DNA of 64,000 nucleotides from positions 2,331 to 66,330 of the forward strand of contig JAAYJW010000331.1 in NCBI GenBank assembly GCA_012522765.1, written 5' to 3'. The notes below the pieces were generated by a model that was not told the DNA's origin, made no database searches, and was given only the letters and a program-made list of their open reading frames with translations. Shown piece after piece: positions 7,921-12,450 of this stretch. Numbering within the stretch: the first letter of the stretch is position 1; each line of letters starts with the position of its first letter. Made by a program: the position numbers and the translations under genes. Source of the stretch: a candidate division WS1 bacterium (GTDB lineage: Bacteria; Armatimonadota; Zipacnadia; Zipacnadales; UBA5352).

Positions 7921-9006
7921 TCAGCGCCCGACCACTTCAGCCACATCCGGCGCTACCGGCGTGCCATGCCGGCAGAGCACCGCCCCCGCAAGGGCCGGGC
8001 TGGTCTCGATGGCGCGATCGAAGCCCTGATCGGCGATCTGCAGCGTGTACGGCAGCGTGGCGTGCTCCAGCGCCACGGTGGCCGTCTGCGGCACCACGCC
8101 GGGGATGTTCGGCACCACGTAGTGCGTCACGCCCTCCTCGACGAAGGTCGGCGCGGCATGAGTGGTCTTGCGGACTGAGGTCTCGACGGCGCCGCAGAGG
8201 TCGGCCGTGACGTCAATGATGACTGCACCAGGGCGCATCGCTCGGACCATCTCGCGCGTGACGACGTGTTCTTCGGAGCCCTCGGGCACCGTGGCCCCAT
8301 TCACGACCAGCCACGCACCCTGCACGGCCTCAGCGACCAGCGCGGGATCGGGCGGAAGCGCCTCTATCCCCGGCAGTGCCGACATTAGCTGACTGCGACG
8401 CTCCTCGCGCAGCTCGAAGATGCTGACGCGAGCGCCAAGTGCCGATGCTACTCGCGCCGCCGCCTCGCCGACCACGCCGCCGCCGATGATGGCGACAGCG
8501 CTCTGGCCGATGCCGGGCATCTGGCCGAGCATGACACCCGGACCGCCATGGATGGTCTGCAGCAGTTGCGCTCCGATGAGCACGGACATGTGCCCGGCGA
8601 TGCGGCTCATCGGAGCGAGCAGCGGCAGCGAGCCGTCCTCAAGCCGAACGCGCTCGAACGAGATGGCGGTCATCCCCCGATCCAGCAGCGCCTCGACCAG
8701 CCACGGCCGCGTCTCGGTGTGCGTATAGCCGAAGAAGATGGCTCCGCGCGGGAATACCTCGCGCTCGGCCTCAGTAGGCTGCTTGACCTTGACGATCAGG
8801 TCGCCGGCGGCCCAGACAGACGCCGCATCTGGCGCGATCTGTGCTCCCTGCTCTTCGTAGTCGGCGTCGCTGAAGCCCGCGCCGACACCGGCGCCACTTT
8901 GCACCGTCACCTGGTGGCCCGCGGCGACAAGCTGCCGCGTGCCCTCCGGCGTCATAGCTACTCTGCTCTCCTGATCCTGCACCTCGGCGGGGACGGCGAT
9001 TCGCAT
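7921..9006 (-). CDS. ald: Alanine dehydrogenase
   Basis: AlaDH/PNT family motifs, including IGGGVVGEAAARVASALGA. Start MRIAVPAEV with GGGAGG RBS. About 361 aa. Confidence 0.88.
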   Translation of the reverse strand: MRIAVPAEVQDQESRVAMTPEGTRQLVAAGHQVTVQSGAGVGAGFSDADYEEQGAQIAPDAASVWAAGDLIVKVKQPTEAEREVFPRGAIFFGYTHTETRPWLVEALLDRGMTAISFERVRLEDGSLPLLAPMSRIAGHMSVLIGAQLLQTIHGGPGVMLGQMPGIGQSAVAIIGGGVVGEAAARVASALGARVSIFELREERRSQLMSALPGIEALPPDPALVAEAVQGAWLVVNGATVPEGSEEHVVTREMVRAMRPGAVIIDVTADLCGAVETSVRKTTHAAPTFVEEGVTHYVVPNIPGVVPQTATVALEHATLPYTLQIADQGFDRAIETSPALAGAVLCRHGTPVAPDVAEVVGR

Positions 9007-9048
9007 TTCGCGACCTCCCACTGCGTTTCGATGGCAGGAGTGTAACGT

Positions 9049-9068
9049 TTGACCTCTGCGAAGGTCAA
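9049..9068. promoter_or_regulatory. Perfect palindrome TTGACCT-N6-AGGTCAA in the ald / YARHG divergent intergenic region
   Basis: Sequence tttgacctctgcgaaggtcaa has 7-bp perfect arms and lies 43 nt upstream of the ald start. Candidate operator and/or overlapping -35 boxes (TTGACC on both strands). Confidence 0.35.
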
Positions 9069-9202
9069 GTAGAGGACGATGCGCGGCGGGAGGTGCGGGG
9101 ATGCGACAGAGGGAAAGGTACGCGCGTCATCAACAGAGGGCTTCGCGGGGGATTGCAGGGCGGGACCTGCGGGGCATGAGTCTCTCAGGGAGGTGCCGGA
9201 AG

Positions 9203-9913
9203 ATGCGACGCATGGTGACCTGTTTGTTGCTCCTCGTGCTCGTCGCCGGGATTGCGAGCGCACAGACGATCTGGACCCCTCGGGTTGAGGAGAATGGACG
9301 CTTGCTCGTGCCGGTCCGCGGGATCTTTGAGGCATTCGGGGCGACTGTGGACTGGAGCGGCTACGATCAGAGTGCCACGGTCAACTACCAGGGCCGCGCG
9401 ATTACCATGTGGGTGAACAACCCGCAGGCTTACATTGACGGGGCCGCCTACTACCTCGACGTGCCGCCGCGCAATGTCGGCGGCCGTGTGCACATCCCTC
9501 TGCGCTTTGTGGGCGAGGCGATGGGCAAGACGGTGAACTATCAGGGCGACCGGGTGGTCATATCCTCCGGCGGCAACGCGGAACTGACGATCATGCTGCA
9601 GGGCAGCACGCTGCCGCCACCGCCGCAGATGGGTGGCGAGATACTGCCGCAGAGCAATGACCGCCATCTCAACAACGCAGACCTCGCCGGGATGAGCAAC
9701 TGGCGGCTGACGCTTGCGCGGAATGAGATCTACGCCCGTCACGGCCGACCCTTTGATAACGCTAGCGTCCGCGCCTACTTCCAGTCAACGGGCTGGTACA
9801 GGCCGAACGCCAACTTCCGCGAATCGTGGCTCTCGCAGACAGAGTCGCGCAACGCGGTCTTCATCCGCGAGTATCAGGAGGGCGTCTTCGGGCGACCCGC
9901 TACCTCTCCTTGA
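9203..9913 (+). CDS. Secreted YARHG-domain protein with copper-amine-oxidase-N-like domain
   Basis: Signal peptide MRRMVTCLLLLVLVAGIASA. Literal YARHG motif (LTLARNEIYARHGRPF...YF...GWY) at the C-terminus. GGAGGTG RBS. Confidence 0.8.
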   Translation: MRRMVTCLLLLVLVAGIASAQTIWTPRVEENGRLLVPVRGIFEAFGATVDWSGYDQSATVNYQGRAITMWVNNPQAYIDGAAYYLDVPPRNVGGRVHIPLRFVGEAMGKTVNYQGDRVVISSGGNAELTIMLQGSTLPPPPQMGGEILPQSNDRHLNNADLAGMSNWRLTLARNEIYARHGRPFDNASVRAYFQSTGWYRPNANFRESWLSQTESRNAVFIREYQEGVFGRPATSP

Positions 9914-9947
9914 TGGGGCGTAAAGGTAGATGGAGCGAGGAGCGACG

Positions 9948-10541
9948 ATGAAGTGGGCTATCGGTATTGCGGCGGCATTCGCGATGATAGTGCTGGTGGG
10001 CATCGCGGTGTTCGTGGGTATGCGCATCGGCAGGTCCGGCGACGATGCAGCAGGCGGCGACGTTACTGCTACGCGGACTGAAGATACGTCTGCGGAGAGC
10101 ACACCGGCGGGCGGTCAGGGCAAACTGACCGCGGGTGCCGCTACCTCTGAGACGGGCGCGGCCACCCGCGAGCAACCCTTCACGAGCGCGGTGGAGATGC
10201 CTGACACCACACCGCCTCCACCGCCACCCGTTGCGCCTCCACCGCCGGTGCTGCCGGTGAGGAACGAACTGCTGCCGCAGAGCGACGACCGCCCGCTCAC
10301 CGGCAGCGATGTGACGGGACTGGGCAACTGGGACCTGACGCTCGCCCGGAACGAGATCTACGCGCGGCACGGGCGTCCGTTCAGCAATGCGCAGATTCGC
10401 GCCTACTTCCAGGGCACCGGTTGGTACACCGCGGATAGCGGCTACAGCGACAGGCGGCTGTCGCAGCTTGAGTCGCGCAATGCAGTCTTCATCCGCGAGT
10501 ATCAGGAGGCCGTCTTCGGCCGAGCAGCAACTGCTCCGTAA
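9948..10541 (+). CDS. Membrane-anchored YARHG-domain protein (Pro-rich linker)
   Basis: N-terminal TM helix (MKWAIGIAAAFAMIVLVGIAVFVGM), a PPPPPPVAPPPPVLP linker, and a C-terminal YARHG domain about 75% identical to the neighbour. Confidence 0.8.
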   Translation: MKWAIGIAAAFAMIVLVGIAVFVGMRIGRSGDDAAGGDVTATRTEDTSAESTPAGGQGKLTAGAATSETGAATREQPFTSAVEMPDTTPPPPPPVAPPPPVLPVRNELLPQSDDRPLTGSDVTGLGNWDLTLARNEIYARHGRPFSNAQIRAYFQGTGWYTADSGYSDRRLSQLESRNAVFIREYQEAVFGRAATAP

Positions 10542-10620
10542 GTCAGGCGACAATGACAACAAAAAGCGGCGGGTCGCAGGCAGCGGCCCGCCGCCGCAAC
10601 TATCGGGAGCATCTCAGACC

Positions 10621-11532
10621 ATGCGACTCGCTATCACACTCGCACTGCTGATCGCAAGCCTCACCGGAGTGTTTGCAGACGACGCCACCGTGGCCGTCAC
10701 GTCGCACCCCTCGGATGCGAAGGTCTACGTGAACGGCTACTACAAAGGCCGCACACCCGCTACCATCACGATTTCCTCCGCCACCGCGACTCCGGCAAAC
10801 TACCGCCTCACGCTCCACCTGCCCGGCTTCAAGCCCTATGACACTGAGATTGTGCTCGCCGCCGGGCAGAACAAGGCGCTCTATGCCACGATGGAGCGGC
10901 TTCCGTCGGCGCTGGGCGGGCGGACGATCTGCATAGATCCGGGGCATCCGTCCGAGACCAGCGCGGGCACTGCCGGCCCCACCGGGGTTAGTGAGAACCG
11001 GATGAACTGGCAGGTGGCGCTCAAGCTGCGCGACAATCTCCAGGCTGCGGGCGCTACCGTGGTGATGACCAAGCAGAGTGAGAACGAGCATGTGACCAAC
11101 CGGCGCCGCGCGGAAATCGCCAACGCTGCCAACGCGGACATCATGATCCGCCTGCACTGTGACGCGGCATCAGCGCGTGGCTTTGCGATCTTCGCGCCGG
11201 ACAGGCAGGGCACCAAGTACGGCGTGACCGGCCCGAGCCAGTCGGTGATCCAGCGAAGCACGGCCGCGATGGGCTCATTCTACGAGGGGATGAAGTCGGT
11301 GCTGAGCGGGACGCTCCCCGGGCGTGGCACGCATGGTGATTCGGCCACCTACGTCGGCTCACGGCAGGGCGCGCTGACAGGCTCGATCTTCTCGCAGGTG
11401 CCGACGCTCACGGTCGAGATGGTCGTGCTGACTAACGCGCAGGACGAGGCGTTCATCAAGAGCGCATCCGGCCAGGCGCTGATGGTGGACGCGCTGCGCG
11501 CGGGGCTGGAGTATACGTTCCGGGCGCGGTAG
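10621..11532 (+). CDS. N-acetylmuramoyl-L-alanine amidase (Amidase_3) with N-terminal PEGA domain
   Basis: Signal peptide MRLAITLALLIASLTGVFA. PEGA-like VYVNGYYKGRTP. Amidase_3 ICIDPGHPSE...MIRLHCDA. Track ORF 10387 has a spurious R/S-rich extension. Confidence 0.8.
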   Translation: MRLAITLALLIASLTGVFADDATVAVTSHPSDAKVYVNGYYKGRTPATITISSATATPANYRLTLHLPGFKPYDTEIVLAAGQNKALYATMERLPSALGGRTICIDPGHPSETSAGTAGPTGVSENRMNWQVALKLRDNLQAAGATVVMTKQSENEHVTNRRRAEIANAANADIMIRLHCDAASARGFAIFAPDRQGTKYGVTGPSQSVIQRSTAAMGSFYEGMKSVLSGTLPGRGTHGDSATYVGSRQGALTGSIFSQVPTLTVEMVVLTNAQDEAFIKSASGQALMVDALRAGLEYTFRAR

Positions 11533-11557
11533 GCGGAAGAACCGGTTTCGCTGCAAG

Positions 11558-11610
11558 AAAGGCCCCTCGACGTGGGAGAAAAAGCTCTTCCGCGTCTTCG
11601 AGGGGCCTTT
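11558..11610. terminator. Bidirectional hairpin terminator between convergent amidase and antitoxin genes
   Basis: Inverted repeat aaaggcccctcgacg...cgtcttcgaggggccttt. Confidence 0.45.
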
Positions 11611-11634
11611 GCAACTCCCATCGGTGCAGCCTGC

Positions 11635-11976
11635 TCATCTTCCCGAGGACATCGCCTCAATGATCTCAGACTGCGACAGGCTCGAATGCTTTTTCGAGTC
11701 GGCACGTTGCTTCAAACTGAACTTTATATCCAAGCCCAATGCCGTAGCCAATCGTACGAGCGTGCGCACCGTCGTGTTATGCTGCGTGTTCAGGAACCTG
11801 CTCAGCGCACTCGGCTGCATGCCCGCGAGTTCCGCCAGCTCCGCCTGCGTGTATCCCTTCTCCTCCATCGCAGCGTAGATCTTTTCCGCCAGATCGTACA
11901 ACAGACCATCGAGAATGTAATCAGGGTCGCCCTCAAACCTACGCTTGCGCTCCTGATAAGCTTCTGACTGCTTCAT
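11635..11976 (-). CDS. HTH XRE-family antitoxin (HigA-like)
   Basis: Helix-turn-helix YTQAELAELAGMQPSALSRFLN. Lies immediately downstream of the toxin gene (24-nt gap). Confidence 0.8.
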   Translation of the reverse strand: MKQSEAYQERKRRFEGDPDYILDGLLYDLAEKIYAAMEEKGYTQAELAELAGMQPSALSRFLNTQHNTTVRTLVRLATALGLDIKFSLKQRADSKKHSSLSQSEIIEAMSSGR

Positions 11977-12000
11977 GTCTTGGTCCTCCTCCGCCCGCTG

Positions 12001-12450
12001 TTATTCACCCGGATAAGTCGCCAGGTACTGCTTCTTCAAGGCAACCGCTCGGTCTATCTGAGCCTGAGGCGTCTTGTCTGTCTTCTTCGTGAAGCCATGC
12101 GTCAACACTATGAGCCCCCTGCCGTCAGGCAGTTTGCCAGCTCGAAACCAGAACACGCGTGACTGGTACTCTTTCAGTTCGAATAGATTGTTTTGCCCTT
12201 TGATCGGCCGTCCTTTCTCAAGGTTTCGAGGAGGGCCTTGATTGCACATGCGTTCAGCCGCTGCATGAATCTTCTTCTGCCCGGCTTCAGGCAGACTCTC
12301 GACAAACTGATCGAACAGAGTGAGATCGCCTTCTCGTGTGCACAGCGCGACGATCACATACAGCTTCCCTGCCGTAACAAGCTCACGTTTCAGCATGCAG
12401 TCCGCATCTCCAGCAGCCCCGGGAAGGGCATTCATTGTGTATGTTAACAT
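12001..12450 (-). CDS. Gp49-like / HigB-RelE family type II toxin
   Basis: Hallmark C-terminal region NLFELKEYQSRVFWFRAGK...IVLTHGFTKKTDKTPQAQIDRA. Start may be an internal Met, for example MLKRELV. Confidence 0.75.
   Translation of the reverse strand: MLTYTMNALPGAAGDADCMLKRELVTAGKLYVIVALCTREGDLTLFDQFVESLPEAGQKKIHAAAERMCNQGPPRNLEKGRPIKGQNNLFELKEYQSRVFWFRAGKLPDGRGLIVLTHGFTKKTDKTPQAQIDRAVALKKQYLATYPGE

What the first reader, a model, noticed from the sequence alone, without database searches (positions are those of the whole stretch)
9203..11532. Tandem YARHG-domain proteins (recent duplication) followed by PEGA-amidase_3
Two adjacent genes end in about 70-aa YARHG domains. At the nucleotide level, about 9700-9913 and about 10330-10541 are clearly homologous. 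One protein is secreted with a copper-amine-oxidase-N-like domain. The other is membrane-anchored through a poly-Pro linker. A cell-wall amidase with a PEGA domain follows. The YARHG domain has no established function, but the context points to peptidoglycan/envelope remodelling.
Basis: partly seen in the sequence, partly recalled or inferred. Interest (0 to 1): 0.5.

Follow-up and report, generated by a model that had tools for sequence, protein, structure and literature searches.

The report
YARHG proteins paired with wall amidase
Three neighbouring genes encode a secreted cell-wall amidase and two proteins carrying the uncharacterised YARHG domain; this amidase-YARHG pairing recurs across several bacterial phyla and is sometimes fused into one protein, which gives the YARHG domain a testable role as the amidase's partner.

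Summary
Gene A (9203-9913) has a signal peptide, a Cu_amine_oxidN1 "stalk" domain and a YARHG domain. Gene B (9948-10541) has a membrane anchor, a Pro-rich linker and a YARHG domain. Gene C (10621-11532) has a signal peptide, a PEGA domain and an Amidase_3 domain. All Pfam hits are far above threshold.

The two YARHG segments are homologous (296 nt, 71-72% identical; 68% at protein level). The duplication is not recent: dS is about 0.9, and A's domain is closer to its orthologues in other genomes than to B's.

The main result concerns context. In 15 of 16 related Armatimonadota loci the stalk-YARHG gene is followed by the PEGA-amidase, even where flanking genes differ. The number of YARHG genes between them varies from none to two.

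Searching outward from the amidase, 17 of 27 metagenome loci with full flanks have an adjacent YARHG gene. Gene order varies, and the phyla named are Armatimonadota, Acidobacteriota, Planctomycetota and Bacillota. At least nine protein clusters fuse YARHG and this amidase type in one polypeptide.

Most likely, YARHG proteins are the amidase's wall-binding or regulatory partners. Whether the amidase is co-transcribed is unresolved: a strong hairpin without a U-tract precedes it.

The parts
9203..9913 (+). Gene A, 236 aa. Signal peptide (aa 1-20), Cu_amine_oxidN1 'stalk' domain (aa 26-119, nt 9278-9559), Pro-rich low-confidence linker (aa 135-144), YARHG domain (aa 146-225, nt 9638-9877; conserved to the C-terminus).
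   Evidence: Pfam hits. The AF2 model has pLDDT 87.9, with two folded domains joined by a linker of pLDDT below 50. Foldseek matches the N-domain to domain 1 of E. coli amine oxidase (rmsd 1.4 A over 74 columns, E 6e-5) and the C-domain to 4g2a (E 4e-3). A GGGAGG Shine-Dalgarno sequence lies 10 nt upstream. The sequence matches GenBank NLO06910.1.
9948..10541 (+). Gene B, 197 aa. N-terminal hydrophobic anchor (IGIAAAFAMIVLVGIAVFV), an acidic and Pro-rich linker of about 85 aa that includes PPPPPPVAPPPP (about nt 10207-10257), and a C-terminal YARHG domain (nt 10269-10505; homology extends to 10538).
   Evidence: Pfam YARHG E 3.5e-18. Hydropathy 2.86 over 19 aa. 100% identical to P0065 / NLO06911.1. 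The gap after gene A is 34 nt and contains GGAG/AGGAG.
9614..9909 (+). Copy 1 of the 296-nt direct repeat, which encodes the YARHG domain of A.
   Evidence: the repeat finder family D1, spacing 628 nt. Ungapped alignment.
10242..10537 (+). Copy 2 of the direct repeat, which encodes the YARHG domain of B; 71% identical to copy 1.
   Evidence: Identity at third codon positions is only 57%, and dS is about 0.93.
10566..10594 (+). Intercistronic GC-rich hairpin (12-bp stem, 5-nt loop) between B and C. No U-tract follows on the + strand.
   Evidence: The 87-nt intergenic region folds at -37.2 kcal/mol, z -4.2, with 0 of 200 shuffles folding as well. The sequence is unique in the window. Hairpins in the same position but with different sequence occur in L001, L002, L011, L125 and L147. 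The terminator scan did not call it.
10621..11532 (+). Gene C, 303 aa. Signal peptide, PEGA beta-sandwich (nt 10687-10899), and Amidase_3 catalytic domain (nt 10927-11511) with Zn ligands H109, E125 and H179 and catalytic E266.
   Evidence: Pfam hits. Invariant residues across 42 homologues. The AF2 model has pLDDT 93 and pTM 0.80. Foldseek matches Rv3717/Ami1 at TM 0.77-0.87, followed by LytH, AmiB and CwlD. phmmer against PDB gives 7agl/4m6g at E about 1e-10.
11559..11610 (.). Long inverted repeat (AAAGGCCCCTCGA ... TCGAGGGGCCTTT) between the convergent amidase and HTH genes. It is the likely bidirectional end of both transcription units.
   Evidence: Fold of -54 kcal/mol for 111 nt, z -4.9. 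Flanked by A-rich and T-rich bases.

Best explanation
Genes A, B and C form an envelope cassette. The enzyme is C, a Sec-exported, zinc-dependent N-acetylmuramoyl-L-alanine amidase that strips peptide stems from peptidoglycan. It belongs to a distinct Amidase_3 subfamily marked by C[IVL]DPGHPSE, LHCD and [KR]QGALTGSIF.

A and B are non-catalytic partners that carry the YARHG four-helix module into the periplasm. A is soluble, with an added 'stalk' domain. B is tethered to the inner membrane by a linker of about 85 residues, long enough to reach the wall.

The most likely role of YARHG is to bind a peptidoglycan feature that is the substrate or product of this amidase, and so to position or retain the enzyme's activity. 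It would be a wall-binding domain supplied in trans to a catalytic domain that has none of the usual wall-binding repeats.

What is shown: the domain identities, an intact catalytic set, the predicted folds, and a strong cross-phylum genomic linkage that includes fusions.

What is inferred: export and topology, co-expression, physical or functional cooperation, and the ligand.
For: Domains and folds.

Catalytic residues are invariant in 42 homologues.

Linkage seen from the YARHG side:
- 15 of 16 non-redundant Armatimonadota loci with a stalk-YARHG gene have PEGA-Amidase_3 next on the same strand.
- This includes L007 and L009, whose flanking genes are entirely different.
- Outside that clade, 11 of 61 YARHG loci have an Amidase_3 gene immediately adjacent on the same strand. 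None has one further away within +-5 kb (Pfam confirmation).

Linkage seen from the amidase side:
- All four amidase homologues looked up had an adjacent YARHG gene, with gene order reversed in L092 and L093.
- 17 of 27 metagenome loci with at least 1.5 kb on both sides have one.
- The commonest form is a bare amidase followed by a protein with four tandem YARHG repeats.

Fusions: Zn-ribbon-TM-YARHG-Amidase_3 sits in one ORF in L061. Nine protein clusters at 42-100% identity carry both PF13308 and PF01520, some on contigs up to 4.86 Mb.

Tandem arrays of 2-5 YARHG repeats are typical of avidity-based wall-binding modules.

Published work proposes that YARHG binds peptidoglycan or a nearby moiety, based on fusions with PASTA, SPOR and SH3 domains.
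Against: - No experiment exists for any YARHG protein.
- If YARHG only bound the wall, acting in trans would not by itself target the amidase. Some contact with the enzyme, or a shared ligand, has to be assumed.
- About a third of amidase loci with full flanks lack a YARHG neighbour, and most YARHG loci outside the core clade lack an amidase neighbour. The partnership is therefore not obligatory.
- A strong hairpin between B and C could uncouple transcription.
- The sampled loci are phylogenetically related, so the counts are descriptive rather than independent trials.
- YARHG and amidase hits in the loci were called with home-made HMMs on stop-to-stop ORFs. Only a subset was checked against Pfam.
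Confidence: 0.55

Rival explanations
1. YARHG proteins are dedicated allosteric activators of this amidase subfamily. They would bind the catalytic domain directly, for example by stabilising the metal site, as the unrelated partners ActH (for LytH), GerS (for CwlD) and EnvC/NlpD (for AmiA/B/C) do.
For: - Amidase_3 enzymes repeatedly depend on structurally unrelated partner proteins, as reported by Page et al. 2022, PMC9245657.
- Adjacency is tight and insensitive to gene order, and cis fusions exist. This is the pattern expected of interacting proteins.
- The amidase lacks both the AmiB-type inhibitory helix and the Rv3717 hairpin, so any regulation must come from elsewhere.
Against: - YARHG is also fused to kinases, peptidases and Zn-ribbons where no amidase is present.
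- It occurs in arrays of 2-5 repeats, which fits a ligand-binding module better than a one-to-one activator.
- The amidase has a complete Zn-ligand set.
- No interaction model could be computed with the tools available.
Confidence: 0.2
2. YARHG is a sensor module for amidase products such as released stem peptides or denuded glycan. The cassette would then couple wall turnover to signalling.
For: - Many YARHG proteins next to amidases have a cytoplasmic Zn-ribbon, a TM segment and sometimes a PASTA domain (L036, L040, L047, L090, L061).
- The literature proposes extracellular ligand sensing.
Against: - The window's A is fully secreted, and B has only a few cytoplasmic residues and no output domain.
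- The four-repeat YARHG proteins also lack output domains.
Confidence: 0.1
3. YARHG proteins are inhibitors or immunity-like guards that restrain a potentially lethal amidase.
For: - Hydrolase-inhibitor pairs are commonly adjacent.
- The hairpin before the amidase could keep its expression below that of A and B.
Against: - Both partners are housekeeping-like and lie in a syntenic chromosomal core.
- No secretion-system or toxin genes are nearby.
- The amidase is more conserved than the YARHG proteins: 70-79% identity against 55-66%.
- Covalent fusion of an effector to its own immunity protein is not expected.
Confidence: 0.07
4. There is no functional link. The adjacency would be inherited synteny among related genomes, and the amidase would be an independent transcription unit behind a terminator hairpin.
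For: - The close relatives share long-range synteny, from AlaDH to the EamA and TPR genes.
- A strong hairpin lies between B and C.
Against: - The pair persists where the flanks differ.
- It also persists in reversed order and in other phyla.
- It exists as fused polypeptides.
- All amidase hits near YARHG genes are immediately adjacent and on the same strand.
Confidence: 0.05

Closest known systems
YARHG domain family (Pfam PF13308; Coggill & Bateman 2012, PMC3355149; structure 4g2a of Legionella lpg2210, PMC3848476)
   Same: - Both window proteins score far above threshold and carry the exact IYARHG motif.
- The domain is C-terminal and extracytoplasmic.
- The predicted helical fold matches 4g2a.
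   Different: - The Cu_amine_oxidN1+YARHG architecture is not described in either paper.
- Neither is the linkage or fusion to Amidase_3. The word 'amidase' occurs in neither paper.
Mycobacterial Ami1 / Rv3717 amidases (PDB 4lq6, 4m6g, 7agl)
   Same: - They are the closest solved relatives by sequence (E about 1e-10) and by fold (TM 0.77-0.87).
- They share the same Zn ligands and catalytic Glu.
- The catalytic domain has no classical wall-binding repeats.
   Different: - The window protein scores 61.7 bits against a cut-off of 335 for NCBIfam NF038140.
- It lacks the 21-residue beta-hairpin of Rv3717. The spacing from the His to the Glu ligand is 16 residues, against 35 in Rv3717.
- It has an N-terminal PEGA domain.
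- It has two invariant cysteines next to the metal ligands.
Amidase-partner pairs: EnvC/NlpD with AmiA/B/C, ActH with LytH, GerS with CwlD
   Same: An Amidase_3 enzyme is paired with a dedicated, non-catalytic envelope protein. The partners are structurally unrelated to one another, so a new partner fold is plausible.
   Different: - YARHG is a small four-helix module, not a LytM domain, TPR domain or GerS-like beta-sheet.
- No interaction or activation has been shown.
- The window amidase has no AmiB-type inhibitory helix.
Autolysins with cis wall-binding repeats (AMIN-AmiC, SH3b/LysM/CWB-amidases, SPOR proteins that bind amidase-denuded glycan)
   Same: - The logic is modular: a catalytic domain plus repeated binding modules.
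- YARHG occurs in arrays of 2-5 repeats and sometimes in cis with the amidase.
- L079 shows stalk+AMIN+Amidase_3 in one protein.
   Different: Here the putative binding modules are mostly encoded as separate proteins next to the enzyme, and the ligand is unknown.

Membership tests
YARHG domain (PF13308) | Profile match above the Pfam gathering score (27 bits) | tested here: met
   A scores 73.7 bits and B 65.8 bits.
YARHG domain (PF13308) | Conserved YARHG motif plus the conserved aromatic pairs and C-terminal Glu | tested here: met
   Both proteins read NEIYARHGRPF...YF...GWY...E.RN. Across 32 orthologues the invariant residues are E175, I176, Y177, A178, R179, G181, F184, F193, W198, Y199, E214 and N217.
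YARHG domain (PF13308) | All-helical fold as in 4g2a | tested here: met
   The AF2 model has helices at 166-178, 187-196 and 212-229, with pLDDT of 90 or more. Foldseek matches 4g2a at E 4e-3, probability 1.00. phmmer against 4g2a gives E about 6e-7.
YARHG domain (PF13308) | Extracytoplasmic location (signal peptide or TM segment N-terminal to the domain) | tested here: inconclusive
   Both proteins have hydrophobic N-termini, and A has an AxA-like cleavage site. No signal-peptide predictor was available.
Cu_amine_oxidN1 / 'stalk' domain (PF07833) | Profile match above the gathering score, and the fold of E. coli amine oxidase domain 1 | tested here: met
   93.1 bits against a cut-off of 24.2. 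Foldseek matches 1oac/1jrq at rmsd 1.4 A over 74 columns, E 6e-5.
PEGA domain (PF08308) | Profile match above the gathering score, and a beta-sandwich fold | tested here: met
   50.3 bits against a cut-off of 20.8. The model has strands at 22-90 and matches CnaB2 and carboxypeptidase regulatory-type domains. The motif reads PSDA in the window and PEGA in the orthologue L004_C.
Amidase_3 (PF01520) N-acetylmuramoyl-L-alanine amidase | Profile match, Zn ligands His/Glu/His and catalytic Glu, and an alpha/beta fold | tested here: met
   96.1 bits against a cut-off of 27. H109, H179 and E266 are invariant and E125 is at least 90% conserved. TM 0.77-0.87 to Rv3717/Ami1 and LytH.
Amidase_3 (PF01520) N-acetylmuramoyl-L-alanine amidase | Hydrolysis of the MurNAc-L-Ala bond | not testable with these tools
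   This needs an enzyme assay on sacculi or muropeptides.
Rv3717 family amidase (NCBIfam NF038140) | Score above the curated cut-off, and the N-terminal autoregulatory beta-hairpin | tested here: not met
   61.7 bits against a cut-off of 335. The His-to-Glu ligand spacing is 16 residues against 35, so the hairpin is absent.
AmiA/AmiB/AmiC-type, LytM-activated amidases | Score above the curated cut-offs, and an autoinhibitory helix inserted over the active site | tested here: not met
   28-36 bits against cut-offs of 400-700. In the model the corresponding segment (193-206) is a short beta-hairpin, not a helix.
Amidase plus dedicated partner protein module (ActH-LytH, GerS-CwlD type) | Physical complex between partner and amidase, and partner-dependent activity | not testable with these tools
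   Only genomic linkage and fusions were shown.
Operon (single transcription unit A-B-C) | Same strand, short gaps, and no terminator between the genes | tested here: inconclusive
   All three genes are on the same strand, with gaps of 34 and 79 nt. No canonical terminator was found. A 12-bp GC hairpin without a U-tract lies between B and C.

The most novel reading that the evidence does not exclude
YARHG would be a previously unrecognised, widespread class of dedicated partner for one Amidase_3 subfamily, either targeting it or activating it. It would be used from Armatimonadota to Acidobacteriota, Planctomycetota and Bacillota, supplied in trans, in tandem arrays or in cis. It would bind the amidase and/or the specific peptidoglycan feature the amidase makes or consumes. 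This would settle the function of a domain that has been 'in search of a function' since 2012 and add a fourth type of amidase partner alongside LytM factors, ActH and GerS.
Probability: 0.3. Interest if true: 0.7.

Novelty: new variant of a known kind. Interest (0 to 1): 0.45.

Why it matters
Peptidoglycan amidases are potentially lethal enzymes, and how they are targeted and controlled is a central question in cell-envelope biology. Every well-studied Amidase_3 enzyme has turned out to need a partner protein or a binding domain.

YARHG is a common extracytoplasmic domain with no experimental function. The linkage found here takes three forms: adjacency that is independent of gene order and flanking genes, tandem repeat arrays, and natural fusions. 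It ties YARHG to one defined amidase subfamily and turns a vague 'binds something near peptidoglycan' hypothesis into direct experiments: whether YARHG binds sacculi, denuded glycan or the amidase, and whether it changes amidase activity.

For the window itself, the cassette is an ordinary, conserved housekeeping module of an uncultured Armatimonadota-like bacterium. Its proteins A and B are already annotated in GenBank as YARHG domain-containing proteins.

Tried and rejected
- **Recent duplication: rejected.** dS is 0.93, third-position identity is 57%, and A and B are sisters in 8% of bootstraps.
- **B as orthologue of the YARHG-only gene at the same position in relatives: rejected.** That 'B clade' (L004, L010, L011, L155) has 96% bootstrap support, and the window's B joins it in 1.5% of replicates. 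B instead pairs, at 74%, with the first domain of a two-YARHG lipoprotein in L010.
- **Canonical promoters and terminators between 8900 and 12600:** no terminator was called and no + strand promoter was found.
- **Rfam search of 8800-11800:** the only match was chance-level, PinT at 20 bits against a gathering score of 60, E 0.53, on the minus strand over the hairpin. No riboswitch lies upstream of A.
- **The hairpin as a repeated element:** it is unique in the window.
- **NCBIfam:** no model matches A or B. The amidase falls below every curated cut-off.
- **Membership of the Rv3717 and AmiA/B/C families:** rejected.
- **Toxin-immunity reading:** considered and rejected on context and on the existence of fusions.
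- **Sequence search of PDB for A and B:** only 4g2a was found.
- **Literature:** the YARHG literature in the held library is six papers. Only two address function, and neither mentions amidases.
Full report
**1. What is in the sequence**

Three + strand genes lie between a divergently transcribed alanine dehydrogenase gene (7921-9021, minus strand) and a convergent HTH gene (11635-11976, minus strand).

- Gene A (9203-9913, 236 aa) has a hydrophobic N-terminus ending in AGIASA/QT. It carries a Cu_amine_oxidN1 domain (aa 26-119, 93.1 bits), a Pro-rich linker and a YARHG domain (aa 146-225, 73.7 bits).
- Gene B is best placed at 9948-10541 (197 aa). This start has a GGAG/AGGAG Shine-Dalgarno sequence and matches the deposited protein NLO06911.1 exactly. 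The protein has a 19-23-residue hydrophobic anchor (hydropathy 2.86), then about 85 residues of acidic and Pro-rich low-complexity sequence including PPPPPPVAPPPP, then a YARHG domain (65.8 bits).
- Gene C (ATG 10621 to 11532, 303 aa) has a signal peptide, a PEGA domain (50.3 bits) and an Amidase_3 domain (96.1 bits).

It spans 9614-9909 and 10242-10537, 296 nt, ungapped, at 71% identity. The proteins match at 62 of 91 residues, E 7e-46.

**2. Age of the duplication**

Over 91 aligned codons, identity is 75%, 84% and 57% at codon positions 1, 2 and 3. By the Nei-Gojobori method dS is about 0.93 and dN about 0.24.

A's YARHG domain is 70-78% identical to the orthologous domains of other genomes but only 67% identical to B's.

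In a neighbour-joining tree of 35 domains, A and B are sisters in 8% of 200 bootstraps. The YARHG-only genes that occupy the same slot in relatives (L004, L010, L011, L155) form a clade with 96% support, and the window's B joins it in 1.5% of replicates. B instead pairs, at 74%, with the first domain of a two-YARHG lipoprotein in L010.

The two domains are therefore old paralogues under purifying selection. They are not a recent tandem duplication.

**3. Source organism**

A and B are identical or nearly identical to GenBank proteins from a MAG labelled 'candidate division WS1 bacterium'. All close homologues come from Armatimonadota MAGs of the classes Ca. Zipacnadia and Armatimonadia.

**4. 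Folds**

AF2 on a 32-sequence alignment gives gene A a pLDDT of 87.9, with two confident domains and a disordered linker at residues 135-144.

- The N-domain superposes on domain 1 of E. coli copper amine oxidase (rmsd 1.4 A over 74 columns, E 6e-5).
- The C-domain matches 4g2a, the only solved YARHG structure (E 4e-3, probability 1.0).

Gene C models at pLDDT 93 and pTM 0.80. Its catalytic domain is closest to mycobacterial Ami1/Rv3717 (TM 0.77-0.87), followed by LytH, AmiB, AmiC2 and CwlD. The PEGA part matches CnaB and carboxypeptidase-regulatory beta-sandwiches.

H109, H179, D181 and E266 are invariant in 42 homologues, and E125 is conserved in at least 90% of them.

Gene C belongs to neither of the best-known amidase families.

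- Against the Rv3717 family it scores 61.7 bits, with a cut-off of 335. It also lacks the 21-residue autoregulatory hairpin.
- Against AmiA/B/C it scores 28-36 bits, with cut-offs of 400-700. It has a short beta-hairpin where those enzymes have the inhibitory helix.

**5. Neighbourhood, starting from the YARHG side**

Fifteen of 16 non-redundant Armatimonadota loci that encode a stalk-YARHG protein have the PEGA-Amidase_3 gene next on the same strand. The exception is L021, which has only 1.3 kb of downstream sequence.

In L007 and L009 the flanking genes are entirely different from the window's, yet the pair is kept.

What lies between the stalk-YARHG gene and the amidase varies:
- nothing (L001, L002, L007, L009, L014, L015, L020);
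- one YARHG-only gene (window, L004, L008, L011);
- two extra genes carrying three YARHG domains (L010).

In L013, L018, L137 and L166 two stalk-YARHG genes lie in tandem before the amidase.

The locus is thus a stable amidase preceded by a variable number of YARHG genes.

Outside this clade I used an iterated amidase HMM. Eleven of 61 YARHG loci from other species have an Amidase_3 gene as the immediate neighbour on the same strand, and none has one elsewhere within +-5 kb. These include a Planctomycetia MAG (L033), several Lachnospiraceae and Clostridia, and the cultured Catenibacillus scindens. Pfam confirmed the calls for L036, L040, L047, L060 and L061.

**6. Neighbourhood, starting from the amidase side**

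All four amidase homologues I looked up had a YARHG neighbour:
- a Zn-ribbon-PASTA-YARHG gene followed by the amidase (L090);
- a two-YARHG gene followed by the PEGA-amidase (L091);
- the PEGA-amidase followed by a two-YARHG gene (L092, order reversed);
- in an Acidobacteriota MAG, a bare amidase followed by a four-YARHG protein (L093).

A metagenome scan with an amidase alignment returned 80 loci (motifs C[IVL]DPGH[PT]SE and [KR]QGALTGSI). Of the 27 loci with at least 1.5 kb on both sides, 17 (63%) have a directly adjacent YARHG gene. The commonest architecture, in 20 loci, is a bare amidase followed by four tandem YARHG domains.

**7. Fusion**

In a Chthonomonadaceae MAG (L061) one ORF encodes a double Zn-ribbon, a TM helix, a YARHG domain and an Amidase_3 domain with the same subfamily motifs.

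A database search with the YARHG-amidase part found nine 90%-identity clusters that carry both PF13308 and PF01520. They are 42-100% identical to the query and sit on contigs up to 654 kb and 4.86 Mb. The fusion is therefore real and recurrent.

Neither of the two papers that address YARHG function mentions amidases. No other paper in the held library treats its function.

**8. Interpretation**

The conserved adjacency, its independence from gene order and flanking genes, and the Rosetta-stone fusions make a functional partnership between YARHG proteins and this amidase subfamily very likely.

What YARHG does within that partnership is inferred. I favour a wall-binding or retention module supplied in trans, for four reasons:
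- it occurs in arrays of 2-5 repeats;
- it is fused to many other extracytoplasmic enzymes and sensors;
- the literature proposes a ligand pocket;
- B's long linker would let a membrane-anchored module reach the wall.

The main rival is an ActH/GerS-like activator. The two readings are not mutually exclusive.

Sensor, inhibitor and coincidence readings are less likely, for the reasons listed under rival explanations.

**9. Transcription**

The gaps are 34 nt (A to B) and 79 nt (B to C). No canonical terminator or known RNA family was found.

The B-C gap contains a 12-bp GC hairpin at 10566-10594. The 87-nt intergenic region folds at -37.2 kcal/mol, z -4.2, with no U-tract on the + strand.

Perfect hairpins of 9-13 bp, with different sequences, sit in the same place in the closest relatives (L001, L002, L011, L125, L147). 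They are absent in more distant relatives.

A long inverted repeat at 11559-11610 closes the unit.

**10. Verdict**

The cassette itself is ordinary and is already annotated. The added value is the general YARHG-amidase linkage, which makes the function of YARHG experimentally approachable.

**Caveats**

- The counts come from related, non-independent loci.
- Domains in the loci were called with home-made HMMs on stop-to-stop ORFs.
- Export signals were judged by eye.
- No interaction was modelled.

Noticed in passing
window 11635-12450 (minus strand): An HTH_3 antitoxin-like gene (11635-11976) and a Gp49/HigB-like gene (12001-12450) form a toxin-antitoxin pair. Their GC content is 53-57%, against about 65% around them. 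The pair is absent from this position in the syntenic relatives L001, L002 and L004, so it is probably an inserted mobile cassette.
   Followed up: partly
window 10566-10594; L001 6736-6765, L002 6751-6773, L011, L125, L147 upstream of the amidase: A strong GC hairpin lies just upstream of the amidase start. Its structure is kept, while its sequence changes, in the closest relatives only. In the window an A-run precedes it, so on the minus strand it resembles an intrinsic terminator. That A-run is not conserved.
   Followed up: partly
L093-L095, L100, L109, L110, L114, L115, L117, L120, L122, L123, L126 and others: A bare amidase of about 250 aa is followed by a protein of about 390 aa made of four tandem YARHG domains. 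In L120, L123, L126, L134 and L141 a further YARHG gene lies about 1.7 kb downstream.
   Followed up: partly
L047 5308-6942: An Amidase_3 domain is fused to a Beta-lactamase2 (class A beta-lactamase-like) domain in one ORF, directly downstream of a Zn-ribbon-YARHG gene in a Firmicutes genome.
   Followed up: no
window 10621-11532 (protein residues C104 and C180): The amidase subfamily has two conserved cysteines. One lies in ICIDPGH, five residues before the Zn ligand H109. The other lies in LHCD, directly after the Zn ligand H179. A disulfide or redox control near the metal site is possible. The Rv3717 entries 4m6h and 4m6i are described as 'reduced' forms.
   Followed up: no
L008 / L016 (GCA_964484945.1, contig CAZAHB010000008.1): Both the stalk-YARHG gene and the PEGA-amidase gene are split into two ORFs by frameshifts in this MAG. 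These are either assembly errors or pseudogenes.
   Followed up: no
window 7921-9021 (minus strand) and L001, L002, L004, L008: An alanine dehydrogenase gene is divergently transcribed from the cassette in the window and its close relatives, but not in L007 or L009. The amidase frees stem peptides that begin with L-alanine, so the neighbourhood may or may not be meaningful.
   Followed up: no
L079 1432-3174; hits P0069, P0074-P0079: Other architectures in the same protein neighbourhood are stalk+AMIN+Amidase_3 in one Bacillota protein, and (Zn-ribbon)-TM-PASTA-YARHG proteins in Armatimonadota. One of the latter (P0078) sits directly upstream of an amidase.
   Followed up: partly
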